The notes: generated from the letters alone by a model not told the origin. Numbered from the stretch's first letter, positions 831 to 40,633 are shown. The stretch: DNA of 64,000 nucleotides from Bacteroidota bacterium (GCA_028875125.1 JAPPGC010000094.1:15761-79760), one strand, 5' to 3'. A program made the numbers and translations.

Positions 831-2261
831 ATGGAAAGCACAAGATTTGACGAGATTACGGCACTCTGCAAGCGCAGGGGATTTGTTTTTCAGTCTTCTG
901 AGATATACGGTGGACTAGGAGCCACCTATGACTACGGCCCCCTGGGTGTAGAACTGAAGCAAAATGTGCGCGAGCAGTGGTGGCGCGACATGGTTTATGC
1001 CAACGAAAATATCGAAGGCGTAGACGCCGCAATTCTGATGCATCCCAGAGTATGGAAAGCTTCCGGGCATGTTGATGCATTTCACGACCCCTTGATTGAT
1101 GATAAAGCATCAAAGCGTCGATATCGTGCTGATCAACTTATTGAGCAACACATAGACCGTCTACGGTCAAAAGGCAAAACGGACCGTGCAGATACAGTGC
1201 AAAAACGATTCACAGAGGCACTCAATGCAGAGGATATGCCGAAAGCGCTCCATTCGCTCATTCTATCAGAAGAAATTCGTGGCCCTGACTCGGGAGCGTT
1301 CGACTGGACTGATGTACGTCAGTTCAATATGATGTTCGAAACAAAAGTGGGAGCGCTTGCTGGTGAGGACTCCTCGATCTATCTGCGCCCCGAAACGGCA
1401 CAGGGTATCTTCGTGAATTTTCAGAACGTATTGTCGACTTCACGCGTGCAGATTCCATTTGGCATTGCCCAAATTGGCAAAGCTTTCCGCAATGAAATTG
1501 TTGCACGACAGTTCATTTTCCGGATGCGTGAATTTGAGCAAATGGAAATGCAATACTTCGTGCAATCAGGTACGCAACATGAGGCATATGAGTTGTGGCG
1601 TTCGCGCAGATGGGACTGGCATGTGCGGAACGGCATCCCGGCGTCGAAACTTCGTTGGCATGTCCACGAAAAGCCCGCTCACTATGCTGATGCAGCTGTT
1701 GATATTCAGTATGAATTTCCAATTGGATGGCAGGAAATCGAGGGTATCCACTCCCGGACGGACTATGACCTCCGCAGGCATCAGGAGTACTCCGGAAAAA
1801 AGATGCAAATCTTTGATCAGGCATCAGGTAGCAGATTCATCCCGTTTGTGGTCGAAACCTCTGCCGGATTGGATCGAACGGTCTTGATGCTGCTTTGTGA
1901 AGCCTATCGTCAAGACACTATCGAAGGGAGGAGCCGTACGGTCATGGCTTTTGCACCGTCTGTGGCTCCCATAAAGGTTGGTGTATTTCCGTTGCTGCGT
2001 AGAGATGGCATGCCGGAGCGTGCCCGCGCCATCACGGATACGCTTAGACGCGAATGGAACGTTTTCTATGATGAAAAAGGATCCATAGGCAAGCGTTACC
2101 GCAGGATGGATGAGGCGGGTGCGCCGCTATGCATTACGATTGATCGCGAAACCCTCGAAGGGGAGGGTGTCACTGTTCGCAACCGAGATACACTGGAGCA
2201 GGTACGGATAGCCGATGATCAGGTACCAGCGTTTGTTTCGGACGCAATGCGTGGTGTTTAG
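831..2261 (+). CDS. glyQS: glycine--tRNA ligase (dimeric GlyQS type)
   Basis: 476 aa. The N-terminus FDEITALCKRRGFVFQSSEIYGGLGATYDYGPLGVELKQNV and the class II core (RPETAQGIFVNF, FRNEI) are typical of GlyQS. Confidence 0.95.
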   Translation: MESTRFDEITALCKRRGFVFQSSEIYGGLGATYDYGPLGVELKQNVREQWWRDMVYANENIEGVDAAILMHPRVWKASGHVDAFHDPLIDDKASKRRYRADQLIEQHIDRLRSKGKTDRADTVQKRFTEALNAEDMPKALHSLILSEEIRGPDSGAFDWTDVRQFNMMFETKVGALAGEDSSIYLRPETAQGIFVNFQNVLSTSRVQIPFGIAQIGKAFRNEIVARQFIFRMREFEQMEMQYFVQSGTQHEAYELWRSRRWDWHVRNGIPASKLRWHVHEKPAHYADAAVDIQYEFPIGWQEIEGIHSRTDYDLRRHQEYSGKKMQIFDQASGSRFIPFVVETSAGLDRTVLMLLCEAYRQDTIEGRSRTVMAFAPSVAPIKVGVFPLLRRDGMPERARAITDTLRREWNVFYDEKGSIGKRYRRMDEAGAPLCITIDRETLEGEGVTVRNRDTLEQVRIADDQVPAFVSDAMRGV

Positions 2262-21869: not shown

Positions 21870-23309
21870 ATGACAGAGTATTTGCACAAGTTCGAGAATG
21901 GTAAAGCTTTCTTACGGTTCAGCCCGGTTTTGGGTATCCTGTTATTGACTGCCGGGTGCTATACACAGTTGGGGGTCGGGTATTTTGAGAGGGAGCCTGA
22001 TTATCAGGAAATCACGGAATATGATACTCCGTATGGGGACAGTGTGGTGGTCGATAACTACTACTACGATGGCTACTACGACCACTATTATCCCCGCAAC
22101 TATCGTTATCGCAGGCATTTCTCGACATTTTATGGGCATCCGTACACAATTATAGATCCGTATTATGATCCCTTCTGGTACGATCCGTTCTACGATGATT
22201 TCTGGTACGGTCGGTCCAGTTTGTATCTGAGTTTTAGCTGGGGTAGATCGTATTATGGGTCGCCCTTCGGGTATGGTTGGCATAATCCCTATCGGTATAA
22301 TCCCTATTACTACGCTGGTGGATATTATGGTGGATGGTATCATGGTGGATGGTATGGAGGTGGATGGTACAATTCTCCTTGGGCCTACTGGAATGGCCCG
22401 GCAGTCAACTACGGGCCGCGAGGATCGCGTATCGGTCGCGGCGGTGTAGCGTCAAGGGGGCGTTATGGGACTGCCGAAGATGACTTACGTGTCGGCCGGC
22501 GTAACGCCCCAAGCAGTCAGGGCAAGAGCACGGGTGCACTGGCCAGGAGCCGAACCCGTAGTGGAGTAGTGGCAGGCGGCAACACTTTGCGTGGCGTGCA
22601 ACGCTCAGGTGTTGACACAGAAGAACCTTCGCGGACGCGTCGCGGGGTTGTACGTAGCACATCAGGTAGCAATACTACTCGCACAGTGCCAGTGACAAGG
22701 TCAACTCCGCGTACACGCGGCACCACACGCTCAACGCCTACGACACGTTCTACGCAGCGTACTCGTGGTACCACACGTACGATACCCACGCCTCGAACGC
22801 GTTCGACACCCACAACGCGCTCAACGCCGCGTACACGCAGTTCGGGTGGCAGCACGCGTTCGACACCTACAACGCGCTCAACGCCGCGTACACGCAGCTC
22901 GGGTAGCACGCGTTCGACTCCCACGACGCGCTCAACGCCGCGTACACGGAGCTCGGGCAGCAGCCGTTCAACACCTACGACGCGCTCAACGCCGCGCACC
23001 CGCAGTTCAGGCAGCAGTCGTTCAACACCTACGACGCGCTCAACGCCGCGCACACGCAGTTCGGGCAGCAGTCGTTCAACACCTACGACGCGCTCAACGC
23101 CGCGTACACGCAGTTCGGGCAGTAGTAGTCGTTCAACTCCTACGACGCGCTCAACGCCGCGTACACGGAGCTCGGGCAGCAGCCGTTCAACTCCTGCGAC
23201 GCGCTCAACACCGCGAAGCAGTAGTTCATCTAGGGCGCCCGCAAGAAGTTCGAGCAGTCGTTCTTCGTCCCGCCGAGGAGGAAACTGGGCTCTTTGCTTA
23301 GAGGAGTAG
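21870..23309 (+). CDS. low-complexity lipoprotein-like protein with a Tyr/Trp/Gly/Pro/Asp-rich domain followed by Arg/Ser/Thr/Pro tandem repeats
   Basis: 479 aa with a signal ending LLLTAGC. Residues ~60-170 are extremely aromatic (DNYYYDGYYDHYYPRNYRY...GGWYHGGWYGGGWY). Residues ~300-450 carry eight copies of RSTPTTRSTPRTRSSGSS. Differences between repeat units are mostly synonymous in this frame, which supports it as the coding frame. Confidence 0.7.
   Translation: MTEYLHKFENGKAFLRFSPVLGILLLTAGCYTQLGVGYFEREPDYQEITEYDTPYGDSVVVDNYYYDGYYDHYYPRNYRYRRHFSTFYGHPYTIIDPYYDPFWYDPFYDDFWYGRSSLYLSFSWGRSYYGSPFGYGWHNPYRYNPYYYAGGYYGGWYHGGWYGGGWYNSPWAYWNGPAVNYGPRGSRIGRGGVASRGRYGTAEDDLRVGRRNAPSSQGKSTGALARSRTRSGVVAGGNTLRGVQRSGVDTEEPSRTRRGVVRSTSGSNTTRTVPVTRSTPRTRGTTRSTPTTRSTQRTRGTTRTIPTPRTRSTPTTRSTPRTRSSGGSTRSTPTTRSTPRTRSSGSTRSTPTTRSTPRTRSSGSSRSTPTTRSTPRTRSSGSSRSTPTTRSTPRTRSSGSSRSTPTTRSTPRTRSSGSSSRSTPTTRSTPRTRSSGSSRSTPATRSTPRSSSSSRAPARSSSSRSSSRRGGNWALCLEE
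22800..23225 (+). repeat. 54/57-bp tandem coding repeat (7 full units and 1 degenerate unit)
   Basis: Units cgttc(g/a)aca(c/t)c(c/t)ac(a/g)acgcgctcaacgccgcg(t/c)acacgcagttcgggcagcag.. start at 22800, 22857, 22911, 22965, 23019, 23073, 23130 and 23184. Older degenerate copies extend upstream from about 22690. Confidence 0.9.
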
Positions 23310-23403
23310 GGACACCCTAGAAAACCACTTGCCAGAAACAGAACCCAGAGAGGGCTAGGGGACATATGTGCCATATACAATCACTAAGCGTACATTTCTT
23401 AAA

Positions 23404-25008
23404 ATGAAACAGCTGAGCAGTAACATCATCAGAATTTTCATGGGTGGCATTGTAGCTGTCATGACGGTTACAGTGTCTTCGGCCAAAGCACAAACTGCTG
23501 CTGACGCCTTGAGGTTCAGTCAGCGAGAAGTATCTGTCGGCGCCCGCATGACTGGATTGTCCACACGTGGCTTTGCAGGAGTCGGAGACTACAGTGCCCT
23601 GCACAGTAATCCGGCTGGGATTGGATACGTCGGCGACTCACAATTCAACATTTCCATAAGGGGAAGTGATATTGCCAACGACCTCTGGACCGAAGGGCTT
23701 AGACTCGACAACAATAGGTCAACGGTCGACCGGTCGGGGCTAGGGAGTATAGGTGTTCTGTATGATGTGCCCGTGACGCAAGGGTCACTTGTTGGCGGGC
23801 TTGGCGTTAGCCGGGTACGTGATTTCACGCGAGTATTGAATTTTTCAGGGGTGAATGCCAACAGTACGATCTCCACGTCTTTCCTGCCATTCGATAACGA
23901 ATACAGCATAGACGAAGAGGGTAACCTTCTAGAACTCAATGATCTTCCATTCGCGGCCTTCAACGCCGGCGTGTTTGAGTACTACCAAGACCTCTATTTA
24001 CAGGGTGAGTATCCGTTCTATGAAGCCGTAGTACCTGGCAGCGCAATTGAGCAGTTGGGGGATGTGACCGAGGGAGGTAGCTTATATGAAGCTACCGCGG
24101 CAGTAGCTTGGCAGGCGACCAAGGATATGATGGTTGGTGTTTCGGCGAATTTGATTCTTGGTCATTACAGCTTCGATTACAGGTTCACGGAGAGGGACAT
24201 TTTTAACGAGAATACTGGAGAGCATTATGATGTGCTTCTTGACGACGGCGGCCTATTGCAGGGCTTTGACGAGCTCATCTATGAGCAGCGATTACGGAGC
24301 GACATGGCAGGATTTAATTCTCGGGCCGGTATCAGCACAAAACTGGGCAGCGCATTCCGACTTGGAGCTACATTTGAATCTCCGACCTGGAGCTATATAG
24401 AAGAGAGCTATGGAGAGCAGTTTGCTACACGATTTGATGTCGGAGGTGAACTTAGCTACGGAGAACGCAGTGATGATGTTGGCAATGGTTACTTTGAGTA
24501 CTCACTACGTTCACCATGGCGTTTAGGTGCTGGACTACAATTTCACAGCGGGTCGTTTAAGCTCACTGCGGAAGGGGAGTTAGTTGACTGGGGGAAGCTT
24601 AAGCTGAGTTCAGATGAAGGAGAAGATATTTTCCGCGAAGCAAATCGTGAGATTGCGAACACATACGAAATGGCGATCAATGTTGCTTTGGGCGCTGAGT
24701 GGGAATTTGGCAGGTTTAATATTCGTGGAGGCGTTGCCGCTCGACCTGCTCCATACGAGTCCAATGTACTGGAAAGCGCAGTCTCTGATACTCCAGAACC
24801 AGGAGCACTTACTGCTGCGTCATTCGGGTTTGGATTCCGATTCACAGACAGAGTTCGTATGGATCTCGGTATACAGAGGGTAGTCACCGAAGACTACTGG
24901 CATGCCTACCCTTCTGATGCCGGAGGGCCAAGGCAGGATGCACAGGTTCAGATAGATGAATCGCTGACAAAAGATATAGCTGTACTTGAACTTACCTGGA
25001 AATTCTAG
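23404..25008 (+). CDS. outer-membrane beta-barrel protein (FadL/PorV-superfamily-like)
   Basis: I chose the start MKQLSSNIIRIF (23404). Signal ...SSAKAQ. The N-terminal motif ALRFSQREVSVGARMTGL...ALHSNPAGIG is shared with the barrels at 31449 and 32463. The C-terminus ends ...LELTWKF. Confidence 0.7.
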   Translation: MKQLSSNIIRIFMGGIVAVMTVTVSSAKAQTAADALRFSQREVSVGARMTGLSTRGFAGVGDYSALHSNPAGIGYVGDSQFNISIRGSDIANDLWTEGLRLDNNRSTVDRSGLGSIGVLYDVPVTQGSLVGGLGVSRVRDFTRVLNFSGVNANSTISTSFLPFDNEYSIDEEGNLLELNDLPFAAFNAGVFEYYQDLYLQGEYPFYEAVVPGSAIEQLGDVTEGGSLYEATAAVAWQATKDMMVGVSANLILGHYSFDYRFTERDIFNENTGEHYDVLLDDGGLLQGFDELIYEQRLRSDMAGFNSRAGISTKLGSAFRLGATFESPTWSYIEESYGEQFATRFDVGGELSYGERSDDVGNGYFEYSLRSPWRLGAGLQFHSGSFKLTAEGELVDWGKLKLSSDEGEDIFREANREIANTYEMAINVALGAEWEFGRFNIRGGVAARPAPYESNVLESAVSDTPEPGALTAASFGFGFRFTDRVRMDLGIQRVVTEDYWHAYPSDAGGPRQDAQVQIDESLTKDIAVLELTWKF

Positions 25009-25320
25009 TGCATCCACTTCTATCCAATGCCGGATGCCATTCAATCCAAAAGTATGAGTCAGGGAATAATATCAAACAGAAAACACGAAACCAAAAAGAT
25101 CGTTGATGTCTGTCAGATTCTGAGGCAGGCAGGTTCCAAGAATCATAGAGGCTCCAACTTATTCAGATCGTGAACAACAGGTAACTCCAAAAAGAATGGG
25201 ATCCGTCTTACATGGGCTGCAAGGAGTCCAATAATGAATTCCAAGGAACAAGTCAGTATATGCTTAATAAAACATCGGCCATTCAGTTTTCGCATTCACA
25301 TTTAATCAAAGGTTAGTCAG

Positions 25321-25527
25321 TTGGCATTTCATATTGGCATCGGCGTTAAGGTCAAGGACAAGGAGAATATTGACCGGGCTCTTCGGCGCTTTAAGCGCAC
25401 CGTCAACCGCAGTCGGGTATTGCGGCTGCATCGACAGAACATGGCTTTCACCAAGCCTTCTGAGGAGCGGCGGATCGCTGAGGAAAAAGCGGCCCGTAAC
25501 GCAAGGATGCACAATCGCCGCTATTAG
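25321..25527 (+). CDS. rpsU: 30S ribosomal protein S21 (start codon uncertain, non-ATG)
   Basis: ..GVKVKDKENIDRALRRFKRTVNRSRVLRLHRQNMAFTKPSEERR matches the S21 family pattern. Possible starts are TTG at 25321 or ATT/ATC at 25333/25339. Confidence 0.9.
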   Translation: MAFHIGIGVKVKDKENIDRALRRFKRTVNRSRVLRLHRQNMAFTKPSEERRIAEEKAARNARMHNRRY

Positions 25528-26363
25528 TTTGGCGGGCCTCGTCGGAAGCATCTTCCGTTCGAGCAGTTGGTCCAGTCCCCCGTTTTCTATTGGTATGTGT
25601 ACGCAGCTTCTAATTGAAGGCTGCACGGTTTCGTTGTGTTTTGCTTCCACCATAAGCCTGCCCACCGCGATTATGCACCATTGGAAAGTTGGGGCAATTC
25701 TTTAATTGAGCACACTAGACGCAATTTCCTGAAGGCTAATCCAGATCCATTTTCCGTTAAGGAGGAACATGGAGGGATCGAGCCGGATTATTCCTGATTC
25801 GGCACTCACCACTGCATTACCGGGTGTGATGCATGTCGTCTCGGAGTTTACGACTCTGACCGTCTTTGCTTTGGCAAGTACAGGAAGCACTCAAGTCGGA
25901 CCCACACATTGGCTCATCATGCTTACACAGCATGACGAGCCTGCAGGCACGAGAGAGCGCTTCCCCACGTGCGCCTCATTAATGGTCCGGGATCAGTGCA
26001 CAGGCAGAGATGGATCCCACTAGATGCTTTGACTTCCTTCGTTCAGAAGCGCCCTCAACTGCCAATCTGAGCCTACCTGCTACCTTAGGTTGAGGTGGCA
26101 GGCATTGCCCGTTGAACTCTCAGGATCGTTCCCTCAGAGCATTCTAGTTGCTAGCAAGAACTGCACTGGGCAACTACTCCTGATCTTTTGGGTTTGGCCT
26201 ACCTAATTTGTCGGAGATAACGAATCAGGCATCAAATGCTGAATTATGAATTCCCTTTGCTGTGGTTGAACCAAAACTTATGACGGAATCAGTTGCATAT
26301 TTGATCAGAATTGGTTAAAATGTGTATGACATCCTACATATATCAATTAGCGGGCGATCTGTT

Positions 26364-29189
26364 ATGAAACAACGCGTCCCAGGTATTGCGTGCATGGTGT
26401 TACTTGGCCTTGTGCACCTCTTGACAGCCGCCTCCGTGAGCGCCCAGTCCGGTAAAATCACGGGGATCGTAACGGACGAAGCAGGGGAAGCTATGGTCAG
26501 CGTAAATGTGGTTATTGTAGGTACGACTAGAGGAGCATCCACAGATCAGGATGGAAGGTTCTTTATTCTGAATGTGGAGCCGGGCACCTATGGACTGCGA
26601 GCATCCTTTATCGGGTTCCGAACCGTGACTCAATCCGAGGTCGTCGTTAATATCAATAAGACGACCACAGTTGACTTCGTGCTTGAAGAGTCTACGACCG
26701 AAGGCGACGAAATACTCGTCATTGCTGTGCGCCCGGATGTACAGGTTGATCAGACAGCCACGCTGGAAATTATCCGCCCTGAAGAAGTCGAGCAAATTGC
26801 CGGTGTTACCGACCTTTCTGATGTACTCGGACTCCAGGCGGAAGTGAACGATGGGCATTTCAGAGGTGGGAGATCCAATGAGGAACTCTATGTGCTGGCT
26901 GGCATGGGGATCGTGAATCCGCTGAATTCATCGCGCTCATTCACACCCATGCTGAGCGCAGTTGAAGAAGTGGAGGTCATTACGAGTGGGTTTGCGGCCG
27001 AATATGGCAACGCCATGAGTGGAGTTATCAATATCTCCACCAAGGAGGGAGGAGACTCATGGAGCAGTCGGGCTGAAATTCGTACACGCACCCCCAACTA
27101 CAAGCACTTCGGGGGAAGCGTGTTTGATCCGGCGAACAATCCCTACATCCGCTTGATGAACAACCTCGAGTGGTGGAAAGCGCCTGACCCGGAAAATGAT
27201 GACAAGCCAAGATGGCAGGGGGCGGTAGGCCGTGGCTTTGGATCCAGGGTTGATCCAGAAGAGGGTGCACAGCTTGCATACGACCTGTGGAAGCGGACGC
27301 ATCGCGACGTAGGGTATCAGTACGACGACCGGTGGGATGCACTCATCGACTTTACACTTGGTGGTCCGATCTCCCAGGACAGCCGTCTCTTTGTTGCAAC
27401 TCAGATCAGTAGGGTGTGGCCCATGTTACCCACACCAGAGGCCGATAGACAAATGCAGGTTATGGGAAATCTCGTCACGAAGCCCGGCCCCGGAAAGAAA
27501 TTGAAGTTGAGTGGAATGTACGGCAGCGTCTACCAGCAGGAGTTCAGTTCTTCCGCTGGCGGTTTCTATAGATGGGTTTATGATCGCGTGATCGGCGCGA
27601 ATAAGGTGCTGGACAAAAGTGTCGGTATAGGGTTGGTCTACTCCCATGTTCTCAATGATCGGACCTACTATGAATTAACCGTGAACGGTATGCGGACCAA
27701 GCTCACCGAAGGCGTGGATGTGATTGATCCAGATCGGTTCCGCGATGATATCAAAGATGGATCCGTCTGGGAAAGACTCTACTGGGAGGATGGATTCCGA
27801 ACCGGAGTAATGGATGACGATTTTTTCGACGAAGAATCTTGGACATATTCCGCTGTCGGGTTCATTACCAGCCAGATCTCCAATAATCACGAAATTAAAG
27901 TTGGGGTCCAAGGTAACCTGTATGATATAGATGTAGAGAATCGACTGAATCATTCGTCCCGGTCCAGCGCTGTGCAGGAGTATTTTCAGGCCAGCCCTTA
28001 TGAAGGAGCAATCTATGTGCAGGATAAGATGGAATTTCAGGGAATGATCACAAATGTGGGACTGCGCTTTGATTTCTATGATCAGAATGTGGAGTATTAC
28101 ACAGACGAATTCTCTCCATTCAGAGACCCTGAAAACCCCGCGCTCATCAATGAAACCAATGCAGCGACTGCAAAAACTCCCATTGTAGCGCGACTGCAGC
28201 CACGGCTTGGATTTTCGTTTCCGATCAGTGAGCGGGCAGTCTTTCACCTGAACTATGGCAGTTACCTCAAGCGTCCCGGCCTAGAGAGTCTGATTGGCAG
28301 CAGAACAACACTCTTTAACGAAAACCTGGGAACGGTGGAACCGCGACGACTCGGTAATCCTCTTTTAAAGCCGGAGGAAACCAAGAGCTACGATGTCGGA
28401 CTGGTGCTCGGGGTAGCACGTGGGTTCACACTGGATGTGAGTGGATACTACAAGGATGTCAAGAACCTGATTCAACGTGTGGTCTACATTGATTCCAATG
28501 ACAATCTTTATGAGTCACTCGGCAATCGGGACTACGCAAACATCCGTGGTTTCAGTCTGCGCCTGAATAAGCGCAGGGGGACTATTTCTGGATCCGTGCG
28601 CTATCATTTTTCGGTGGCCACTGGGAAGAATTCAACCCCAACGGGGCGCAGCCCAATCATCGACGAAACCGACGAACAGACACAGGCTCCCAGTCCGCGT
28701 GATATCCTCCTCAATTTTGACCGCAGACATGCGCTTGTGTTGGTTGCGGGGATTAATCTTCCACGGGAATGGGGGCCAAGGATCGCTGGTGGACACCCGT
28801 TAGGTCGTCTTCGGATAAACTTCCTTCATGACTCCCGAAGTGGCAGGCCGTATACGCCCAGTGAATTATTGGGGGACAACTTTGCCAAGTTGAATACCGA
28901 ACGCACCCCTGGGGAACACAACACGGATCTCAAGATCACTAAGACTATTGGTGCAGGTATTGCACAAGTGGATGTTTTTGCTGAGATATTCAATCTCTTT
29001 AATGCACGGATATTTCATTATAACAGGGTTTTTCTGGATTCCGAAACACTGCGTCGCTACGAGAACGGAGAAGACATAGAATACGCGCTGCCAGACAGCA
29101 ACAACCCTGACCTTGCTGCTGTGCAGACATTTCGTATCTACAACAATGCCCCCCGCTCAATACGGATTGGTGTTGTCATAAACATGTGA
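26364..29189 (+). CDS. TonB-dependent receptor (CarboxypepD_reg + plug + barrel), first gene of the polysaccharide locus
   Basis: I chose the start MKQRVPGIACMVLLGL..SVSAQ (26364). Features: SGKITGIVTDEAGEAMVSVNVVIVGTTRGASTDQDGRFFILNVEPGTYGL, a plug (EVITSGFAAEYGNAMSGVINISTK) and a long barrel. It is paralogous to 59382..62216. Confidence 0.9.
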   Translation: MKQRVPGIACMVLLGLVHLLTAASVSAQSGKITGIVTDEAGEAMVSVNVVIVGTTRGASTDQDGRFFILNVEPGTYGLRASFIGFRTVTQSEVVVNINKTTTVDFVLEESTTEGDEILVIAVRPDVQVDQTATLEIIRPEEVEQIAGVTDLSDVLGLQAEVNDGHFRGGRSNEELYVLAGMGIVNPLNSSRSFTPMLSAVEEVEVITSGFAAEYGNAMSGVINISTKEGGDSWSSRAEIRTRTPNYKHFGGSVFDPANNPYIRLMNNLEWWKAPDPENDDKPRWQGAVGRGFGSRVDPEEGAQLAYDLWKRTHRDVGYQYDDRWDALIDFTLGGPISQDSRLFVATQISRVWPMLPTPEADRQMQVMGNLVTKPGPGKKLKLSGMYGSVYQQEFSSSAGGFYRWVYDRVIGANKVLDKSVGIGLVYSHVLNDRTYYELTVNGMRTKLTEGVDVIDPDRFRDDIKDGSVWERLYWEDGFRTGVMDDDFFDEESWTYSAVGFITSQISNNHEIKVGVQGNLYDIDVENRLNHSSRSSAVQEYFQASPYEGAIYVQDKMEFQGMITNVGLRFDFYDQNVEYYTDEFSPFRDPENPALINETNAATAKTPIVARLQPRLGFSFPISERAVFHLNYGSYLKRPGLESLIGSRTTLFNENLGTVEPRRLGNPLLKPEETKSYDVGLVLGVARGFTLDVSGYYKDVKNLIQRVVYIDSNDNLYESLGNRDYANIRGFSLRLNKRRGTISGSVRYHFSVATGKNSTPTGRSPIIDETDEQTQAPSPRDILLNFDRRHALVLVAGINLPREWGPRIAGGHPLGRLRINFLHDSRSGRPYTPSELLGDNFAKLNTERTPGEHNTDLKITKTIGAGIAQVDVFAEIFNLFNARIFHYNRVFLDSETLRRYENGEDIEYALPDSNNPDLAAVQTFRIYNNAPRSIRIGVVINM

Positions 29190-29211
29190 CACTTACGGCA
29201 TAGTAACAAAG

Positions 29212-31452
29212 ATGGCTCGTATCCTCGCATTTATTCTAATAATGGCAGCAGTGCTTCCTGAAACTCAGGCACAGGTCCTGCGCGACAAGCGTGTACACAG
29301 TCGTGGGATGCTGCACGAGACGGTCTATAACACTGGAGAGATCGGCCGCAAGTGGTTTTACAGAGATCATGACATTACACTGGACCCACTTATGGAGTGG
29401 CCGGGGAATTCAGCTACGACCATAGATGGTCTGCAGTACAGTGGGCAACATAACATTATTGGAGGCGGAATATCAATTGCAGCCTCGTACAGCGGCACGA
29501 ACATATTCAATCTTGACGAGCGCATGTACTCGTTTGGTGGATCATCTGGGCAGCACGTCCCCATCACGGTTGCCGGGGTGTATTCCTTTCCGATTTCCAT
29601 CGAACGTGTAGAGAACTATCCGCTTCTAGACGATGGCAGTTTGAACCCTGCTTATGATCCCAATGAAGCCGAGGAGATCATCACTGCGCAGTGGGGGACC
29701 AATACCGGAATATCGGTCACACGTACTAGTCGCGCCTGGAGCTATCCGGACTATGATGATTTGATCATATTCGAGTACACGTTTGAAAATACCGGTGACA
29801 AGGACGGGGATGGCAATCTAGACAATAATGAAACACTCCATGAGGTTCTGATAGGATTTCATTATGGAGTGGCACCTTCTATGATGGGATTTCAGCGGTG
29901 GTATGGTACGTGGGAGTATGATTTCATGTACAAGAACGATCTGCGTGGTTATTTCGATCGGCATCGCTGGTTGAGGTATGTGGTTAACATCGGCAATGGG
30001 GTAAACGCGGATTTTGCCCAATCCGGCAAGCCGGATCCAAAATATTTCGCGAGCTTTGCCGCTACCGGTGAGCAGGGCGGAGGATTGATGTCCCCTCAGG
30101 CCCCAGGTATCCAGATGTTGTTTTACGATCGCAACTACTTGGCTACTAAGGGAAACACGTTCGCACTTGATCCGAGGGTTTCAAATGAGCGCATGATCAC
30201 TAGCGACAGTACGCTCAAGCAACCTTTCATGAACAAGGTCGAAAGCGGAAACTCCAGAGAGGACAAGATGAGACCCAAGCTTGTCCCATACACGCGCTGG
30301 AGCGGTACATACACTCCCTATCGGGAAACGGTATTCCCTCCGCCACCGGGCACCGAGGATCCCGATACTCTGAGGTGGATCGGACGTGGAGCATATAATT
30401 TCAGGCAATCCTACAAGGCGGTTGGTCACCACATTGTATTTGGACCGTACATTCTTCCGCCGGGAGCCAAATTGGAATTTTCACTAGCTGAAGTGGTGGG
30501 CTATAGTGCTGCCGATGGACCAGGGGAATGGGACGAAGGCGGGGGACTTGGCGAGGTAATTGACGAGCAACTACCGTGGCATGAGGTCCCACATTTTGCG
30601 GATCGGGTGATTGATCCGGCATCCGGTCAAACGCTTGTAGAAAACTATATCGGAGAGTTTGGTTATCCAGACTATGTAAACTCGGACGTTCGAACGGTCA
30701 AAGATGTGGCCGATATGGCCTACAATGCCTACACAGGCAGGGCACCCTTGCTACCTCTTTGGCCGGAAGATAACCCGCCTGATGGGGTATATCAGATTCC
30801 TACACCACCTCCAGCACCTATTGTCAGGATCACCAATAACGACAGGGCTCACTCGGTTCTGCGTTGGGGGCGTGCACAGGAATCTTTTTCACATCCAAGA
30901 TTGACGGGCCCGGTGGCTACTTACCGTGTACAGCGCTCACAGGCAGCGATTGGTCCATGGCAGACCTTGGCAGAGATTCCCGTTGGCAGTGCCAATAATC
31001 TGACCGAGTCAGATTTGTACGAGTTCATAGATACAGAAACGACAGTTGGAGAGTCACAGTGGTATGCAGTCACGTCTCTGGATGCCCAGGGTAATGAAAG
31101 CGGGAAGACCAACCTCATGGAAGTAACCTCCCAACTTGGAGCTGCCGAGACGCTGGTTGAAGTACATGCTGTGCCTAACCCGTTTTATCTCAGAAGTGGT
31201 TTCACAACCGGAGGGGGTGGTAATTCAGCGCAGCAAATTGGTTTTTATGGGCTACCGGAGCGTGCTACAATTGAGATTTACTCATACAGCGGACAGCTCG
31301 TCGATACGATAGAGCACGATGCAACTCAGTATTCCGTTCCCTGGTTTCAAGTAACCCGTAACGACCAGGAGATTGCTTCGGGAGTCTATTTCTTTGTAGT
31401 GCAGACTCCCGACGGGGAAACCTATCGCGGCAAATTTACGGTGATCAAATGA
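29212..31452 (+). CDS. uncharacterised secreted TBDR-partner protein with an FN3-like region and a T9SS-type C-terminal domain
   Basis: 746 aa with the signal MARILAFILIMAAVLPETQAQ. I recognise no catalytic family. The C-terminus VPNPFYL...ATIEIYSYSGQLVDTI...SGVYFFVVQTPDGETYRGKFTVIK resembles a Por secretion tail. It lies 22 nt after the TBDR and is homologous to the partial ORF at 62225. Confidence 0.75.
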   Translation: MARILAFILIMAAVLPETQAQVLRDKRVHSRGMLHETVYNTGEIGRKWFYRDHDITLDPLMEWPGNSATTIDGLQYSGQHNIIGGGISIAASYSGTNIFNLDERMYSFGGSSGQHVPITVAGVYSFPISIERVENYPLLDDGSLNPAYDPNEAEEIITAQWGTNTGISVTRTSRAWSYPDYDDLIIFEYTFENTGDKDGDGNLDNNETLHEVLIGFHYGVAPSMMGFQRWYGTWEYDFMYKNDLRGYFDRHRWLRYVVNIGNGVNADFAQSGKPDPKYFASFAATGEQGGGLMSPQAPGIQMLFYDRNYLATKGNTFALDPRVSNERMITSDSTLKQPFMNKVESGNSREDKMRPKLVPYTRWSGTYTPYRETVFPPPPGTEDPDTLRWIGRGAYNFRQSYKAVGHHIVFGPYILPPGAKLEFSLAEVVGYSAADGPGEWDEGGGLGEVIDEQLPWHEVPHFADRVIDPASGQTLVENYIGEFGYPDYVNSDVRTVKDVADMAYNAYTGRAPLLPLWPEDNPPDGVYQIPTPPPAPIVRITNNDRAHSVLRWGRAQESFSHPRLTGPVATYRVQRSQAAIGPWQTLAEIPVGSANNLTESDLYEFIDTETTVGESQWYAVTSLDAQGNESGKTNLMEVTSQLGAAETLVEVHAVPNPFYLRSGFTTGGGGNSAQQIGFYGLPERATIEIYSYSGQLVDTIEHDATQYSVPWFQVTRNDQEIASGVYFFVVQTPDGETYRGKFTVIK

Positions 31453-32453
31453 GACGAAGAACATCAAGCAGCAAAGCTGTATTAGTCCTTCTGTTCGCCA
31501 GTGGTTTGTTTTTACCAACCGCCCATGGGCAGAAGGTGGGAACGTCGTCTATGCAATTTCTGAGTGTGGCCCCTGATGCCCGTTCGATGGGTATTGGTAC
31601 GGCGTACAGTGCCATAGCCGAAGGAGCGCATGCGCTCTATTGGAACCCAGCCGGGCTTACGCGAACTGCGGGACACAGTCTCGTAATTGACAGGGTGGAC
31701 TGGTTCCTGGATGCAGCGCATTACGGTGTTGCCTATGGCGCATCTCTTGGATCCTGGGGGCATGCGGGCGTACATTTCTACATGGCAGACATGGGAGATT
31801 TTCAGGAGACGCGTGTGGACCATCTCGGATTCGTTGACCAAGGGGGCACACAGGTGTACAACCCAGGTCTGACAGGTACGACCTTTTCTTTGCGCAGCTG
31901 GGTGCTTGGCGTTTCATACGCCAGAGCATTCACGGACCGGTTTTCTGCCGGCCTCACGGCCAAGATGGCGCAGGAAAACCTCTGGCTGTCAGAAGCCAGT
32001 GCGTTTCTGTTTGACTTTGGAATGACATACATCACGGGATTCCGTTCATTACGCTTAGGTGCTTCTGTAATGAACTTTGGTGCACCAGTGGTCTTTGAGG
32101 AAGACTCCTATCCGGTTCCGTTACGGTTCCGGCTTGGTGGTGCGGTGGCTGTTATTGGTAGCGGTGGTATTATTTCATTTCACGACGCGAACCGCTTGAC
32201 CGCCACCTTTGACCTCATCCAACCCAATGATTATGATCAACAGTGGGCTGCAGGACTGGAGTATGCATTTTTACAGCGCATACATGTACGGGGTGGTTAT
32301 CAGCACAATTATGACATCGCGTCCTACAGTTTTGGACTGGGGATACGTCAGCCAATCGCTTCGGTTGGGCTCGGATTTGACTATAGTTACAGCAGTATGA
32401 GCGAGGCCTTTGGAGTGGTGCACCGGCTTGGATTTTCACTTTCGTTAGACTGA
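31449..32453 (+). CDS. PorV/PorQ-family outer-membrane barrel
   Basis: 334 aa. After the signal comes GTSSMQFLSVAPDARSMGIGTAYSAIAEGAHALYWNPAGL, the characteristic PorV/PorQ N-terminal pattern. Its ATG overlaps the previous stop (ATGA at 31449-31452). Confidence 0.75.
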   Translation: MRRRTSSSKAVLVLLFASGLFLPTAHGQKVGTSSMQFLSVAPDARSMGIGTAYSAIAEGAHALYWNPAGLTRTAGHSLVIDRVDWFLDAAHYGVAYGASLGSWGHAGVHFYMADMGDFQETRVDHLGFVDQGGTQVYNPGLTGTTFSLRSWVLGVSYARAFTDRFSAGLTAKMAQENLWLSEASAFLFDFGMTYITGFRSLRLGASVMNFGAPVVFEEDSYPVPLRFRLGGAVAVIGSGGIISFHDANRLTATFDLIQPNDYDQQWAAGLEYAFLQRIHVRGGYQHNYDIASYSFGLGIRQPIASVGLGFDYSYSSMSEAFGVVHRLGFSLSLD

Positions 32454-32462
32454 CTACAGGAC

Positions 32463-33863
32463 ATGCTTCGTCGACTCCCCTTACTGTTGCTCTTCGTAGC
32501 CCCATTGTCATACGGACAAGGGGTTATGCAGCCACTATCGGTTCAGGGGGTGGAGCGTCAGGAGTCCGTGACTGTGCGTGCACGGGCAATGGGTAGTGCA
32601 GTAACCGCCCTGTCGGGTTCTATTGAAACTGTGATCCTCAATCCGGCCGGTCTGGCCAGTCTTTCTCTTCCAACGCTTTCGGCAAGCGGGGCTTGGTTTC
32701 AGCAGGACTGGGCAGAAACGCAGCATTGGAATCCCAATCGCTATTACGCGGGGATGTCGCTCTTCTTCGCGGATCCAGATGAATATCGGAGCGAGCCGCT
32801 CTCGGCGCCGGACTGGACCCATAGTCAGGGCACTTTTCGATTGGCGGCAATAGGGGGAGCAATCCCATTGAGATTGGGAGAGCGCGCATTGACCGTGGGG
32901 GTTATGCTGCATCAGACCGCACAGTTGAGCGATTATGATCGCAACGACAATGTGCTGAATCCTTACATCGGCCAATTTCGCCCAGATCCTATTGAACGCC
33001 CCAAGCCCGGAGAAGAAATTGTTGTTCGATGGTCAGCCTTTGAGAGGGAGCGCACGGGATATATGCAGGCGGTTTCCACAGCAGCTGGATTGGAGTTGAG
33101 TGAAAACTTCCATGTTGGATTGCGTATTACTCGAGCTTGGGGAAGCTCAACGGATCGTCAGGAGATCCGCGAAACAGGGGTGTTTTTCCTTCGCGAAGAT
33201 GCACACGACTATGATCATGAACCCGCTAATGGGTCCATATCGTGGGATGGATCCTCGGAATACAGCAGTTGGAAAGGCGTACTGGGCTTGCAGTGGCAGT
33301 ATGACGTGATCACTGTAGGGATCACGTACCAATTTGCGAGTGATCTGCGACGCAACTTCAGTAACACCGGACAAGTGCGTACGACGAATGGCGAGGCGCG
33401 AAATCTTACGCAGGTGGGAGTCGATAGAGTCAGATTGCCTGCCCGTGTTAGGGCAGGGGTAGCTCTGCGTCCTATACCGGTCGTTACACTCGCAGCAGAC
33501 TATTCTTGGCAGAACTTTTCGGACCTGAAGGTCACAGGCAGTGGAGTGACTACAGCTCCAGACTGGGGGATGGTTGAAGGCATAGGTTTGGGAGGAGAAT
33601 GGAATTTTCGGGGGGAAACCTTCCTGCGTGCAGGGTTCAGACGCGACCCACAACCGTTCAGGATTGAGGGCTTTGGACTTGTCGGGCAGACGGCCACCGG
33701 AGACGCATTCAGTGCCGGCCTCGGGACAAGCATCTCCGTCCTTACGCTGGATATCGCATATGAATTTCAGCGCTTGCGTTACCAGGATAGATGGGAATCC
33801 AATGTTGACTACAACCGGATACGCAAGCATAATGTGCTCTTTGGTGTGTCCTACACTTTTTAG
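32463..33863 (+). CDS. second outer-membrane beta-barrel (FadL/PorV-superfamily-like)
   Basis: 466 aa with signal ...PLSYGQ. Features: SVTVRARAMGSAVTAL...ILNPAGLASL, alternating amphipathic strands and a C-terminal ...LFGVSYTF. It lies 9 nt after the PorV-like gene. Confidence 0.65.
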   Translation: MLRRLPLLLLFVAPLSYGQGVMQPLSVQGVERQESVTVRARAMGSAVTALSGSIETVILNPAGLASLSLPTLSASGAWFQQDWAETQHWNPNRYYAGMSLFFADPDEYRSEPLSAPDWTHSQGTFRLAAIGGAIPLRLGERALTVGVMLHQTAQLSDYDRNDNVLNPYIGQFRPDPIERPKPGEEIVVRWSAFERERTGYMQAVSTAAGLELSENFHVGLRITRAWGSSTDRQEIRETGVFFLREDAHDYDHEPANGSISWDGSSEYSSWKGVLGLQWQYDVITVGITYQFASDLRRNFSNTGQVRTTNGEARNLTQVGVDRVRLPARVRAGVALRPIPVVTLAADYSWQNFSDLKVTGSGVTTAPDWGMVEGIGLGGEWNFRGETFLRAGFRRDPQPFRIEGFGLVGQTATGDAFSAGLGTSISVLTLDIAYEFQRLRYQDRWESNVDYNRIRKHNVLFGVSYTF

Positions 33864-33919
33864 AAGCTGGCCGGCATATGAACGGCATCTGTAGCACACA
33901 CGGCCAGTCTGGTTTTGCT

Positions 33920-40629: not shown

Positions 40630-40633
40630 TCTG

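What the first reader, a model, noticed from the sequence alone, without database searches (positions are those of the whole stretch)
21870..25008. Extreme low-complexity lipoprotein (aromatic-rich block + eight RSTPTTRSTPRTRSSGSS repeats) paired with a PorV/FadL-like barrel
Seen:
- After a lipoprotein-like signal (LLLTAGC), a ~110-aa block is dominated by Y, W, G, P and D (YYYDGYYDHYY, GGWYHGGWYGGGWY).
- It is followed by a strongly basic Arg/Ser/Thr/Pro region with 7-8 near-identical 18/19-aa repeats.
- Differences between units are mostly synonymous (tcg/tca, ccc/cct, aca/acg), so the peptide rather than the DNA is conserved.
- A barrel protein with the same ARxMG...NPAG motif as the PorV-like genes starts 95 nt downstream.

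I recognise no family.

Inference only:
- It may be an intrinsically disordered, polyanion-binding (alginate, EPS, nucleic acid or mineral) surface tether.
- Alternatively it may be a heavily O-glycosylated or phosphorylated S/T-rich linker, presented by its partner barrel.
Basis: partly seen in the sequence, partly recalled or inferred. Interest (0 to 1): 0.6.

Follow-up and report, generated by a model that had tools for sequence, protein, structure and literature searches.

The report
Disordered lipoprotein paired with FadL-type barrel
This is a real, conserved but unnamed two-gene outer-membrane module of Rhodothermales and Bacteroidota: a lipid-anchored, almost wholly disordered protein (tyrosine-rich head, strongly positive repeat tail) always encoded next to its own FadL-type barrel, whose function is still unknown.

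Summary
ORF 21870-23309 encodes a 479-aa lipoprotein: lipobox LLLTAG|C, an acidic head with 25% Tyr, and a tail of about +44 charge holding 7 perfect RSTPTTRSTPRTRSSG cores. All 10 variable repeat sites are synonymous third positions.

A 534-aa barrel (23404-25008) follows after 94 nt. It is a predicted 14-stranded FadL-fold protein with hatch and NPA motif. It fails the BamG, PorV/PorQ and PorP/SprF family thresholds.

The pair is not a curiosity of this genome. In 31 of 31 evaluable loci (Rhodothermales, Salinibacter, Hufsiella, Pedobacter, unclassified) the lipoprotein gene sits directly upstream of an orthologous barrel. The head profile finds about 456 protein clusters. None of the 19 family members scanned matches a Pfam family, and none of the four scanned matches an NCBIfam family. 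Head and tail are both under purifying selection (pN/pS 0.07-0.18), while repeat number and unit drift.

My best reading (confidence about 0.4) is that the barrel is a dedicated dock for the lipoprotein, as in BamG-BamH, and the tail is a polyanion-binding electrostatic tether. Surface versus periplasmic location is unresolved.

Verdict: new variant of a known kind, moderately interesting.

The parts
21870..23309 (+). CDS of the 479-aa lipoprotein (stop codon included)
   Evidence: ORF. Homologues with the same architecture lie upstream of the barrel in 24/24 evaluable Rhodothermales loci. pN/pS is 0.07-0.32 against relatives.
21870..21959 (+). Signal peptide with lipobox LLLTAG|C (Cys30 = 21957-21959), followed by the near-invariant CYTQL
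   Evidence: Sequence. Cys is invariant in alignments A1 and A4. 118 of 127 full-length family members have a lipobox, and CYTQL is the commonest continuation.
21960..22379 (+). Acidic aromatic head (aa 31-170). Family-wide motifs: EREPDYxEVxEY, GDSVVVDNYYYD, RYRRHFSxFYG, YDPF repeats, SSLxLSFGWG, G/Y/W block
   Evidence: Composition. Conserved columns. pN/pS 0.08-0.14. AF2 shows only a weak hairpin at aa 45-65, with pLDDT 41.
22323..22369 (+). 15-nt micro-repeat x3.1 encoding GGWYH/GGWYG/GGWY
   Evidence: Tandem Repeats Finder.
22410..22448 (+). Junction motif YGPRGSRIGRGGV between head and tail. It recurs across the family as PRGSxxGRGG
   Evidence: Alignments; distant members.
22380..22679 (+). 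Non-repetitive basic Gly/Arg/Ser middle region (aa 171-270, net about +12)
   Evidence: Conserved LARSRTRSG...RGVQRS...SRTRRGV blocks. pN/pS 0.18-0.32.
22680..23306 (+). Polycationic Ser/Thr/Arg/Pro tail (aa 271-479, net about +44)
   Evidence: pN/pS 0.07-0.18. The family tail averages about 20% R/K and 31% S/T (medians 17% and 30%), with a median net charge of +19 downstream of residue 200.
22800..23215 (+). 54-nt tandem array, 7.6 copies (RSTPTTRSTPRTRSSG + 2-3 Ser/Gly)
   Evidence: 0 non-synonymous differences among the 7 cores.
23286..23309 (+). Seven-codon read-through extension WALCLEE plus stop. Relatives end ...RRGGN-TAG; here TAG is TGG
   Evidence: DNA alignment A6.
23310..23403 (+). 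94-nt spacer. The proximal ~75 nt are more conserved than synonymous sites, including a CTAGGGG..GTATG element about 55 nt before the barrel ATG
   Evidence: No + strand terminator-like site between the genes. No Rfam match.
23404..25008 (+). CDS of the 534-aa FadL-superfamily outer-membrane barrel
   Evidence: 88 homologues, most carrying a precomputed PF03349 hit. AF2 pLDDT 84.4, pTM 0.80, 14 strands. Foldseek top hits are FadL, TodX and BamG, E 5e-19 to 1e-14.
23404..23490 (+). Barrel signal peptide, predicted cleavage AKA|Q (mature N-terminal Gln)
   Evidence: The AQ-(T/Y)xxDALRFS mature N-terminus is conserved across distant orthologues. The cleavage site itself is an inference.
23491..23640 (+). 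N-terminal hatch region (aa 30-79) with the NPA motif at 23608-23616
   Evidence: N69 and P70 are invariant and A71 is at least 90% conserved. NPA aligns with the NPA of a P. aeruginosa FadL homologue. Mean column identity 0.63.
23857..24045 (+). Large conserved acidic extracellular loop L2 (aa 152-214, net -11; FLPFDxEY, DLPFAAFNGG, GEYPF motifs)
   Evidence: Topology comes from the AF2 secondary structure.

Best explanation
The locus encodes a dedicated two-component outer-membrane module that is widespread in Rhodothermales/Salinibacter and in Sphingobacteriia- and Cytophagia-type Bacteroidota.

Component 1 is a lipid-anchored 'head-and-tail' protein predicted to be disordered on its own.
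- The head is acidic and rich in Tyr/Trp/Gly/Pro/Asp. It carries family-wide linear motifs, including CYTQL directly after the lipidated Cys.
- The tail is polycationic Arg/Ser/Thr(-Pro) and is built from tandem repeats that keep changing.

Component 2 is a 14-stranded FadL-fold barrel with a hatch, an NPA motif and a very acidic extracellular crown.

Proposed mechanism (inferred, not shown):
- The barrel works mainly as the membrane dock or presenter of the lipoprotein, not as a free-standing fatty-acid channel. [quoted passage not shown]
- The head's conserved motifs and the lipid anchor bind the barrel.
- The long, Pro-punctuated, highly charged tail acts through charge as a flexible tether or brush. 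Its targets would be polyanions: LPS, eDNA or acidic polysaccharide if it is surface-exposed, and peptidoglycan or anionic lipids if it is periplasmic.
- I slightly favour surface exposure. The side of the membrane is not settled.
For: Shown:
- Strict, reciprocal gene linkage. 24/24 evaluable Rhodothermales loci, 3/3 loci of distant barrel homologues and 4/4 loci of distant lipoprotein homologues keep the order lipoprotein then barrel on one strand, with gaps of 18-250 nt.
- The downstream barrels are orthologues of this barrel (blastp 1e-17 to 1e-86). The window's other FadL-like barrel is not (E 0.4).
- The family is real and sizeable: 456 clusters at E<=1e-3 and 75 at E<=1e-10.
- Among the listed members of at least 280 aa, 118 of 127 have a lipobox. 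About 26% of the head is aromatic, the median net charge downstream of residue 200 is +19, and the C-termini are Arg/Gly-rich.
- Purifying selection acts on both the head (pN/pS 0.08-0.14) and the tail (0.07-0.18). There are 0 non-synonymous differences among the repeat cores.
- The barrel is FadL-fold with NPA.
- The mature barrel has net charge -37, of which -31 lies in the long, conserved extracellular loops. The periplasmic turns are 2-6 residues and neutral. The other FadL-like barrel of the same genome is only -8.
- Between clades, weakly cationic lipoproteins (+7/+8, Sphingobacteriia) go with near-neutral barrels (-6/-3). Lipoproteins of +35 to +61 go with barrels of -31 to -53.

From the literature:
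- FadL-fold barrels in Bacteroidota act as docks for lipoproteins or cargo. BamG binds BamH's lipidated tail, BamG2-BamH2 are adjacent paralogues, and PorV is a shuttle (PMC12611786; PMC12578637).

Inference:
- Near-invariance of the residues right after the lipid-Cys is unusual for lipoproteins and suggests that a partner binds them specifically.
Against: - No physical interaction was tested, and complex prediction was not possible with the tools allowed.
- The lipoprotein lacks the Bacteroidota export signal of at least 2 acidic residues within six residues after the Cys, the rule quoted in PMC12578637. It reads CYTQLGV here and CSTSKLA in Pedobacter. That argues for a periplasmic orientation, where the barrel offers almost no docking surface.
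- The charge correlation is not significant over all pairs (Spearman -0.27, p 0.16) and is confounded by phylogeny and habitat.
- The barrel keeps the canonical FadL hatch and NPA features, so a genuine hydrophobic-substrate transport role is not excluded.
- Polyanion binding is inferred from composition alone.
- In Salinibacter-type members the tail is a mixed-charge Arg/Asp/Glu polyampholyte.
- A conserved element in the spacer may mean the two genes are not strictly co-expressed.
Confidence: 0.4

Rival explanations
1. Periplasmic envelope tether or spacer. The lipoprotein sits in the inner leaflet of the outer membrane. Its polycationic, Pro-punctuated tail binds peptidoglycan or anionic inner-membrane lipids electrostatically, as a non-covalent functional analogue of Lpp/Pal/OmpA in a lineage without Lpp. 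The barrel is a functionally related neighbour, possibly contacted through its hatch or the lipid anchor, rather than a presenter.
For: - No acidic export signal after the Cys in any clade.
- The periplasm is the default location for OM lipoproteins (established knowledge).
- Tail composition and net charge are conserved while unit and copy number drift, as expected for a length- and charge-based function.
- The 209-aa tail is long enough to span a periplasm (inference).
Against: - It does not explain the strict subfamily-specific linkage to a barrel whose periplasmic turns are 2-6 residues and poorly conserved.
- It does not explain the barrel's exceptional acidic extracellular crown.
- It has none of the defining Lpp features: no coiled coil and no C-terminal Lys (the ends are RGGN/RGGR).
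- Exact repeat peptides are under strong purifying selection, more than a pure charge or length function needs.
Confidence: 0.22
2. Hydrophobic-nutrient uptake system. The barrel is a true FadL-type channel, and the lipoprotein is its substrate-capture or hand-over partner, with a SusD-like or AupB-like role. The aromatic head binds hydrophobic or aromatic ligands.
For: - The barrel keeps the hatch, the invariant NPA and a break in strand 3 at residues 141-142, where FadL has its kink.
- Its best structural matches are transport-competent FadL and TodX.
- The head is about 36% aromatic.
Against: - No lipid or aromatic catabolic genes are linked in any of the loci examined. The neighbours are proS, an aldo/keto reductase, yceG and rpsU.
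- The head is predicted to be disordered with no pocket.
- A tail of about +44 has no obvious role in hydrophobic uptake.
- The segment before NPA is about 7-9 residues longer than in FadL. This is the kind of N-terminal extension that plugs the lateral opening in BamG. The FadL numbering is from memory.
Confidence: 0.15
3. T9SS-style cargo plus cognate anchor barrel, analogous to SprB/SprF or type-B CTD protein/PorP. The conserved Arg/Gly C-terminus would serve as the recognition signal.
For: - The gene order is cargo then barrel.
- The extreme C-terminus is conserved (RRGGN, RGGR, SRRR).
- The organism has T9SS substrates and a PorV/PorQ family protein nearby.
Against: - The lipoprotein has a lipobox signal, not a signal peptidase I signal plus CTD.
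- It has no Por_Secre_tail hit.
- The barrel gives no PorP/SprF hit at E<=0.1 and only 25 bits against the PorV family cut-off of 90.
Confidence: 0.05
4. Not a functional gene. The ORF is a chance open frame over a GC-rich tandem repeat, or a decaying pseudogene.
For: - One relative (L018) shifts frame inside the repeats.
- The window copy has lost its normal stop codon.
- Other frames over the repeat are also open.
Against: - 23 of 24 relatives keep the frame through repeats of differing number.
- pN/pS is 0.07-0.18 in the tail and 0.08-0.14 in the head.
- All intra-array differences are synonymous.
- The family has hundreds of clusters with the same architecture.
Confidence: 0.01

Closest known systems
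BamG-BamH and the paralogous BamG2-BamH2 pair of the Bacteroidota BAM complex (PMC12611786, PMC12578637)
   Same: - A FadL-fold 14-stranded barrel partnered with a lipoprotein. For BamG2-BamH2 the partner is encoded next to the barrel.
[quoted passage not shown]
- The barrel's N-terminus is conserved and somewhat extended.
- BamG structures are among the top Foldseek hits (9hiv_F, 9hjm_F, 9n2d_B).
   Different: - The barrel scores 20 bits against the BamG equivalog cut-off of 250.
- It is about 130 aa larger, with big acidic loops.
- The gene order is reversed.
- BamH is a folded two-domain surface lipoprotein with an acidic export signal. This lipoprotein is disordered, polycationic and lacks that signal.
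- No link to BamA is known.
FadL/TodX/OmpP1 hydrophobic-compound channels (Pfam PF03349)
   Same: - Predicted fold, N-terminal hatch, NPA motif and a break in strand 3.
- Best structural matches and a weak profile match.
   Different: - The window protein is just below the Pfam gathering score (26.5 against 29.7).
- It has about 100 extra residues in the extracellular loops and net charge -37.
- It has an obligate partner lipoprotein.
- No catabolic genes are linked.
PorV/PorQ (T9SS shuttle and attachment-complex barrels)
   Same: - The same superfamily and the shared N-terminal ARxMG...NPAG motif.
- The barrels bind other proteins on the cell surface.
   Different: - 25 bits against a cut-off of 90.
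- A bona fide PorV/PorQ family protein elsewhere in the window scores 179.
- The partner here is a lipoprotein without a T9SS C-terminal domain.
RcsF-OmpA/C/F (lipoprotein threaded through a barrel by a disordered, positively charged linker)
   Same: This shows that a disordered basic lipoprotein segment can be held in or by a barrel, and can be surface-exposed without any export signal. I recall this from established knowledge and did not test it here.
   Different: - RcsF has a short linker and a folded sensor domain.
- Its partner barrels are generic porins and are not genetically linked to it.
Tyr/Gly/Asn-rich extracellular loop 3 of Bacteroidota BamA (PMC12578637)
   Same: A flexible, Tyr/Gly-rich low-complexity segment at the outer membrane of the same superphylum, with function unknown.
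   Different: - It is a 38-residue loop of a barrel, not a 140-residue lipoprotein head.
- No homology has been shown.
Tyr/Arg 'sticker' proteins of eukaryotes (FUS-type low-complexity plus RGG regions; mussel foot protein Mfp-3)
   Same: Compositional resemblance only: Tyr/Trp/Gly-rich blocks combined with Arg-rich blocks. This comes from memory, is not a tool result, and is a lead, not a test.
   Different: - No homology.
- A different cellular compartment.
- No evidence here for condensates or adhesion.

Membership tests
FadL/OmpP1/TodX superfamily (barrel) | Pfam PF03349 Toluene_X match at or above the gathering score | tested here: inconclusive
   The window protein scores 26.5 bits against a cut-off of 29.7. 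Most of its close homologues carry a precomputed PF03349 hit. The family profile hits a P. aeruginosa FadL homologue at E 5.6e-6.
FadL/OmpP1/TodX superfamily (barrel) | 14-stranded barrel plugged by an N-terminal hatch | tested here: met
   The AF2 model has pLDDT 84.4 and 14 long strands, with a helical/coil N-terminal 50 residues at pLDDT 84-88. Foldseek top 25 hits are all FadL, TodX, TbuX, CymD or BamG, E 5e-19 to 2e-12. This is a prediction, not an experiment.
FadL/OmpP1/TodX superfamily (barrel) | Conserved NPA motif in the hatch | tested here: met
   N69 and P70 are invariant and A71 is at least 90% conserved in 22 homologues. The motif aligns with NNPA of 3dwo.
FadL/OmpP1/TodX superfamily (barrel) | Kink in strand S3 giving a lateral opening, and transport of hydrophobic substrates | tested here: inconclusive
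   DSSP breaks the third strand at residues 141-142. Model coordinates could not be inspected, and transport cannot be tested here.
BamG (Bacteroidota BAM subunit) | NCBIfam NF053685 equivalog score of at least 250 | tested here: not met
   20.1 bits.
BamG (Bacteroidota BAM subunit) | N-terminal extension of about 10-12 residues beyond FadL that threads the lateral opening | tested here: inconclusive
   The mature N-terminus to NPA is 39 residues, against about 32 in E. coli FadL (from memory). It is about 9 more than in 3dwo in the profile alignment. The N-terminus QTxxDALRFS is highly conserved. Its path in the structure was not examined.
PorV/PorQ family | NCBIfam NF033709 score of at least 90 | tested here: not met
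   25.1 bits, N-terminal motif only. The positive control in the same window (31449..32453) scores 179.1.
PorP/SprF barrel plus type-B CTD cargo | TIGR03519 match for the barrel, and a T9SS C-terminal domain on the upstream protein | tested here: not met
   The barrel has no PorP/SprF hit at E<=0.1. The lipoprotein has no Por_Secre_tail or any other Pfam hit.
Bacterial lipoprotein (signal peptidase II substrate) | Basic n-region, hydrophobic h-region and a lipobox ending in an invariant Cys | tested here: met
   The sequence is MTEYLHKFENGKAFLRFSPVLGILLLTAG|C. Cys is invariant in A1 and A4, and 118 of 127 full-length relatives have a lipobox. Actual lipidation cannot be tested here.
Bacteroidota surface-exposed lipoprotein | Export signal: two or more acidic residues in the six residues after the Cys (rule quoted in PMC12578637) | tested here: not met
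   The window reads C-YTQLGV. Sphingobacteriia members read C-STSKLA or C-SAPRLA. The rule has not been validated for Rhodothermota.
Braun lipoprotein (Lpp)-type peptidoglycan tether | Helical coiled coil and a C-terminal Lys for covalent attachment | tested here: not met
   No helix is predicted beyond the signal peptide. The C-termini are RGGN, RGGR or SRRR.
S/TPXX (SPKK-type) minor-groove DNA-binding repeats | Recurrent (S/T)-P-basic-basic turns as the conserved element | tested here: inconclusive
   This clade has two (S/T)P units per repeat (STPTTR, STPRTR). Other clades have Pro-free tails such as SGRSRSSSGGVRS (L021, L024), so this is not a family-defining feature. Binding was not tested.

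The most novel reading that the evidence does not exclude
The pair is a previously unrecognised envelope device. A FadL-fold barrel anchors a fully disordered 'sticker' protein with a Tyr/Trp-rich acidic head and an Arg-rich tail. That protein forms a cation-pi/electrostatic gel, coacervate or wet-adhesive layer at the cell surface or in the periplasm. This would be a bacterial counterpart of FUS-type condensates or mussel-foot adhesives. It could set surface charge, glue cells to anionic matrices such as sponge mesohyl, particles or eDNA, or stabilise LPS packing in place of divalent cations.
Probability: 0.1. Interest if true: 0.8.

Novelty: new variant of a known kind. Interest (0 to 1): 0.55.

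Why it matters
Barrel-lipoprotein complexes are a hallmark of Bacteroidota-type outer membranes. Recent BAM and T9SS structures show that FadL-fold barrels have been repurposed there as protein docks.

This locus adds a third such pairing, so far unnamed. It is a distinct FadL subfamily that always travels with a lipoprotein unlike any characterised partner: essentially all disordered, about 25% tyrosine at one end and about +44 charge at the other.

- The family has hundreds of sequence clusters but no Pfam or NCBIfam model.
- It occurs in culturable genera (Pseudopedobacter, Pedobacter, Hymenobacter, Salinibacter), so it is directly testable.
- If the tail proves to be a surface polycation brush or an envelope tether, it would bear on adhesion, surface charge and outer-membrane stability in marine symbionts and soil Bacteroidota.
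- There is also a practical point. The repeats truncate the gene in short-read assemblies. Four of the eight homologues found by single-sequence search are flagged 'partial' and three more are short fragments on small contigs, so the family is under-represented in databases.

Tried and rejected
- Pfam and NCBIfam scans of the lipoprotein and relatives gave no usable family. 19 family members were scanned in Pfam and 4 in NCBIfam. The only listings were chance-level: Ala_zip_lipo at 13 bits and Fib-H_N at 16 bits.
- The UniRef labels 'Prolyl-tRNA synthetase' and 'DUF3300' on two members are annotation spill-over. Neither member has a Pfam hit.
- AF2 of the head with a 29-sequence alignment gave pLDDT 41 and no usable fold, so no fold search was run on it.
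It was redone with an allowed alignment (A5).
- The sigma-70 promoter and terminator scan was at background level.
- Rfam on 21000-26400 gave no match.
- I looked for an acidic export signal on other lipoproteins in the window as a local control. Too few lipoproteins were present to be informative.
- The charge correlation across all 29 pairs was not significant. Only the between-clade contrast is suggestive.
- Four further literature searches found nothing on this family: two on tyrosine-rich and disordered lipoproteins, one on disordered Arg-rich periplasmic lipoproteins, and one on Rhodothermaceae sponge symbionts.
- I considered and dropped curli/Fap amyloid systems (no repeat or barrel similarity), LptD/E, PEP-CTERM or GlyGly-CTERM sorting (no C-terminal transmembrane helix) and silaffin-like mineralisation (no evidence; the family is not restricted to sponge symbionts).
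- Complex prediction of lipoprotein plus barrel could not be attempted.

Full report
**1. What is in the sequence**

ORF 21870..23309 (+) encodes 479 aa. It starts with a lipoprotein signal, MTEYLHKFENGKAFLRFSPVLGILLLTAG|C. The mature protein has three parts:
- Head, aa 31-170: Y 25%, G 14%, P 8%, D 8%, F 6%, W 5%, pI 4.9, net about -7.
- Gly/Arg/Ser middle, aa 171-270: net about +12.
- Tail, aa 271-479: S 28%, T 27%, R 22%, P 11%, net about +44.

The mature protein as a whole is about +49 with pI 11.2.

Tandem Repeats Finder reports a 54-nt unit x 7.6 at 22800-23215 (score 575) and a 15-nt unit x 3.1 at 22323-22369. Seven units share an identical 16-aa core, RSTPTTRSTPRTRSSG. The 10 nucleotide columns that vary among them are all third codon positions. 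That gives 96 synonymous and 0 non-synonymous pairwise codon differences.

The barrel gene follows. Homologues of 534 aa at 100% coverage place its start at ATG 23404, 94 nt after the lipoprotein stop.

**2. The barrel**

Sequence evidence:
- Pfam gives a sub-threshold Toluene_X (FadL) match, 26.5 bits against 29.7.
- NCBIfam gives only weak, far sub-threshold hits to PorV_fam (25 against 90) and BamG (20 against 250).
- A profile of 22 homologues hits a P. aeruginosa FadL homologue at E 5.6e-6, with the NPA motifs aligned.

Structural evidence:
- AF2 with the 22-sequence alignment gives a confident model (pLDDT 84.4, pTM 0.80). It has 14 long strands and a 50-residue N-terminal hatch region.
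- Foldseek against the PDB returns FadL, TodX, TbuX and CymD, and the BamG subunits of the B. thetaiotaomicron, P. gingivalis and F. johnsoniae BAM complexes. E-values run from 5e-19 to 2e-12, with a sharp drop afterwards.
- N69 and P70 are invariant and A71 is nearly so.
- The third strand is broken at residues 141-142, where FadL has its kink.

Reading the strand order from the model, the periplasmic turns are 2-6 residues and neutral. The extracellular loops total 178 residues, are well conserved (L2-L4 column identity 0.60-0.67) and carry -31 of the mature protein's -37 net charge. The other FadL-like barrel in this window (32463..33863) has only -8.

The mature N-terminus, Q-(T/Y)-x-x-D-A-L-R-F-S, is conserved out to Sphingobacteriia.

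The barrel is therefore a distinct, enlarged and very acidic subfamily of the FadL fold. It is not BamG, PorV/PorQ or PorP/SprF.

**3. The lipoprotein is a family, not a one-off**

- A single-sequence search with the head found only 8 relatives. Four are flagged 'partial' and three more are short fragments on small contigs. In L020 the assembly breaks inside the repeats, which is the likely reason for these truncations.
- A profile search of 1.84 billion representatives found 456 clusters at E<=1e-3, 75 at E<=1e-10 and 11 at E<=1e-30. All matches were at the N-terminus of the target.
- Among the 127 listed members of at least 280 aa, 118 have a lipobox and the commonest continuation is CYTQL. 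The head is 26% aromatic on average. The last 120 residues average about 20% R/K and 31% S/T (medians 17% and 30%), with a median net charge of +19 (maximum +60) downstream of residue 200. The extreme C-terminus is typically RGGN, RGGR, GGRN or SRRR.
- Motifs conserved across the family are EREPDYxEVxEY, GDSVVV, RYRRxFSxFYG, YDPF repeats, SSLxLSFGWG and PRGSxxGRGG at the head/tail junction.
- None of the 19 family members scanned hits Pfam, and none of the four scanned gives a real NCBIfam match.
- Named members are all 'hypothetical', for example Pedsa_0415 of Pseudopedobacter saltans and a Hymenobacter protein.
- AF2 on the head gives pLDDT 41, with only a weak hairpin at aa 45-65. The protein is predicted to be disordered on its own.

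**4. Linkage**

- A scan of one genome per species with the barrel profile returned 25 loci, all Rhodothermales/Rhodothermaceae or unclassified Bacteroidota MAGs. In 24 of them a lipoprotein of the same architecture lies directly upstream on the same strand, with a gap of 38-250 nt. The 25th is cut by the contig end.
- Three distant barrel homologues (33-36% and 24% identity: a Salinibacter MAG, an unclassified 5.6-Mb genome, and Hufsiella ginkgonis) have the same upstream partner.
- Four distant lipoprotein homologues (Pedobacter and unclassified bacteria) have a FadL-like barrel immediately downstream.
- Those downstream barrels are orthologues of this one (blastp 1e-17 to 1e-86). The window's second FadL-like barrel is not (E 0.4).
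- Linkage is therefore 31/31, reciprocal and subfamily-specific.
- The only recurrent neighbours are housekeeping genes. A divergent proS occurs in 4 loci, an aldo/keto reductase here and in Hufsiella, and yceG in two Salinibacter-type loci. The pair therefore looks like a self-contained module.

**5. Selection and repeat dynamics**

Against relatives whose barrels are 96%, 89%, 79% and 78% identical, pN/pS values are:

| Region | pN/pS |
|---|---|
| Head | 0.08-0.14 |
| Middle | 0.18-0.32 |
| Repetitive tail | 0.07-0.18 |

Protein length ranges from 353 to 554 aa, and both unit type and copy number differ between clades. Examples are RSTPTTRSTPRTRSSGSS here, TRSSSRPTTRSTPRTRSSSG, STRSAPRTRSSSGS, Pro-free SGRSRSSSGGVRS, and Arg/Asp/Glu polyampholyte tails in Salinibacter-type members.

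What is kept family-wide is a long, hydrophilic, net-positive tail rich in Ser/Thr/Arg(Gly) with an Arg/Gly C-terminus. Within a clade the exact peptide is also kept.

**6. How it most likely works**

Shown:
- The pairing is obligate.
- The barrel has a FadL fold with an acidic extracellular crown.
- The partner is a lipid-anchored, disordered protein combining an acidic aromatic head and a polycationic tail, and it is under purifying selection.

From the literature:
- In this superphylum FadL-fold barrels have been converted into protein docks. [quoted passage not shown]
- The BamG2-BamH2 paralogues are adjacent genes.
- PorV binds T9SS cargo (PMC12611786; PMC12578637).

Inferred:
- This barrel is the dedicated dock or presenter of its lipoprotein.
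- The near-invariant CYTQL next to the lipid, and the head motifs, are the contact elements.
- The tail works through charge as a flexible polyanion-binding tether or brush.

Which side of the membrane?
- For surface exposure: almost all of the barrel's conserved, charged surface is extracellular. Between clades, weakly cationic lipoproteins (+7/+8) pair with near-neutral barrels (-6/-3), and lipoproteins of +35 to +61 pair with barrels of -31 to -53.
- For a periplasmic location: no clade has the acidic export signal used by Bacteroidia and Flavobacteriia surface lipoproteins.
- The charge relation is not significant over all 29 pairs (rho -0.27, p 0.16) and is confounded by phylogeny.

I put about 0.4 on the dock-plus-electrostatic-tether model overall. 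Rivals are a periplasmic tether acting independently of the barrel (about 0.22), an accessory for genuine FadL-type hydrophobic uptake (about 0.15), and a T9SS-like cargo/anchor pair (about 0.05). A spurious ORF is about 0.01 and is effectively excluded.

**7. Comparison with known systems and novelty**

The kind of system (an outer-membrane barrel with a cognate lipoprotein in FCB-group bacteria, using a FadL-fold barrel as a protein partner) is known. This barrel subfamily and this lipoprotein family are not described in Pfam, NCBIfam or the searchable literature.

The partner is qualitatively unlike BamH, SusD-like proteins or T9SS cargo, because it has no predicted fold at all. I therefore rate it a new variant of a known kind.

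The compositional resemblance to Tyr/Arg 'sticker' proteins (FUS-type low-complexity regions, mussel foot protein 3) comes from memory only. It is offered as the most novel reading that the evidence does not exclude.

**8. Caveats**

- All structural statements are predictions.
- Barrel topology was read from secondary-structure order, not from coordinates.
- No expression data were available.
- The taxonomy of several loci is known only from MAG record titles.
- The organism is a Rhodothermales MAG lineage: 99% barrel identity to Rhodothermaceae SB0661_bin_24 and 96% to OZ244794. Its sponge association is my recollection of those MAG series, not a tool result.

Noticed in passing
window 23286-23309: The lipoprotein's normal stop codon (TAG directly after ...RRGGN in L001, L002 and L003) reads TGG here. 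This gives a 7-aa extension, WALCLEE, to the next in-frame TAG. L001 has a 99% identical barrel but keeps TAG, so this is either a very recent change or a sequencing error.
   Followed up: partly
window 23330-23403; L003, L006, L007, L010, L017 upstream of the barrel start: The spacer before the barrel gene is more conserved than synonymous sites: about 7% differences against L003, versus pS about 0.35-0.40. A CTAGGGG..GTATG element about 55 nt upstream of the ATG persists in relatives with only 55% barrel identity. It may be an internal promoter, operator or 5'-UTR element. It has no Rfam match.
   Followed up: partly
L018 4144-5808 (OZ241874): One relative shifts reading frame inside the repeat array and continues for about 190 aa in another open frame (LPLRGLVPRQEHGVHQAAVPVP repeats). 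This is either a long-read indel error or a natural frameshift or phase variant.
   Followed up: no
window 26322-36502: A separate cluster sits next door:
- a TonB-dependent-receptor-like protein (26322..29189);
- a 746-aa protein with a weak T9SS C-terminal domain / PorZ-like C-terminus (29212..31452);
- a bona fide PorV/PorQ-family barrel (31449..32453, 179 bits);
- a second FadL/BamG-like barrel (32463..33863, 66.6 bits against the BamG cut-off of 250);
- a heparinase II/III-like protein.
They are not orthologous to the barrel studied here.
   Followed up: partly
window 38257-48557: A polysaccharide-lyase locus: three T9SS-secreted or beta-helix proteins including two chondroitinase-B-type (PL6-like) lyases, a GntR/FadR-type regulator, and TRAP transporter DctP/DctM genes. 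It is not linked to the pair in other genomes.
   Followed up: no
window 13332-16868: A 1178-aa protein combining a subtilase (S8) domain with many leucine-rich repeats and a He_PIG Ig-like domain. This is a eukaryote-like repeat architecture of the kind often reported in host-associated bacteria.
   Followed up: no
window 22038-22055 (aa 57-62, GDSVVV): The invariant GDSVVV motif in the Rhodothermales head contains D-S-V. That fits the Bacteroidota general O-glycosylation sequon D-(S/T)-(A/I/L/V/M/T), which I recall from memory. It is not conserved in the more distant members.
   Followed up: no
L028, L029, L031, L033: In four distant loci the pair is transcribed divergently from proS (prolyl-tRNA synthetase). 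This probably explains the erroneous UniRef name 'Prolyl-tRNA synthetase' on some lipoprotein homologues. In this window the nearest class II synthetase (831..2261) is glycine-tRNA ligase, 20 kb away.
   Followed up: partly
P0101 (homologue): This 98-aa 'homologue' ends in ...LIHISEPTRPY. It looks like a chimeric or adapter-derived contig end rather than real protein sequence. It was nevertheless one of the 12 rows of alignment A5, which was the query of the profile search.
   Followed up: no
L030 6505-7665; L032 6588-7199: In two distant loci a further gene with no Pfam hit (386 aa and 203 aa) follows the barrel on the same strand. It may be an extra component in some lineages. In this window rpsU (25321..25527) follows instead.
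   Followed up: no
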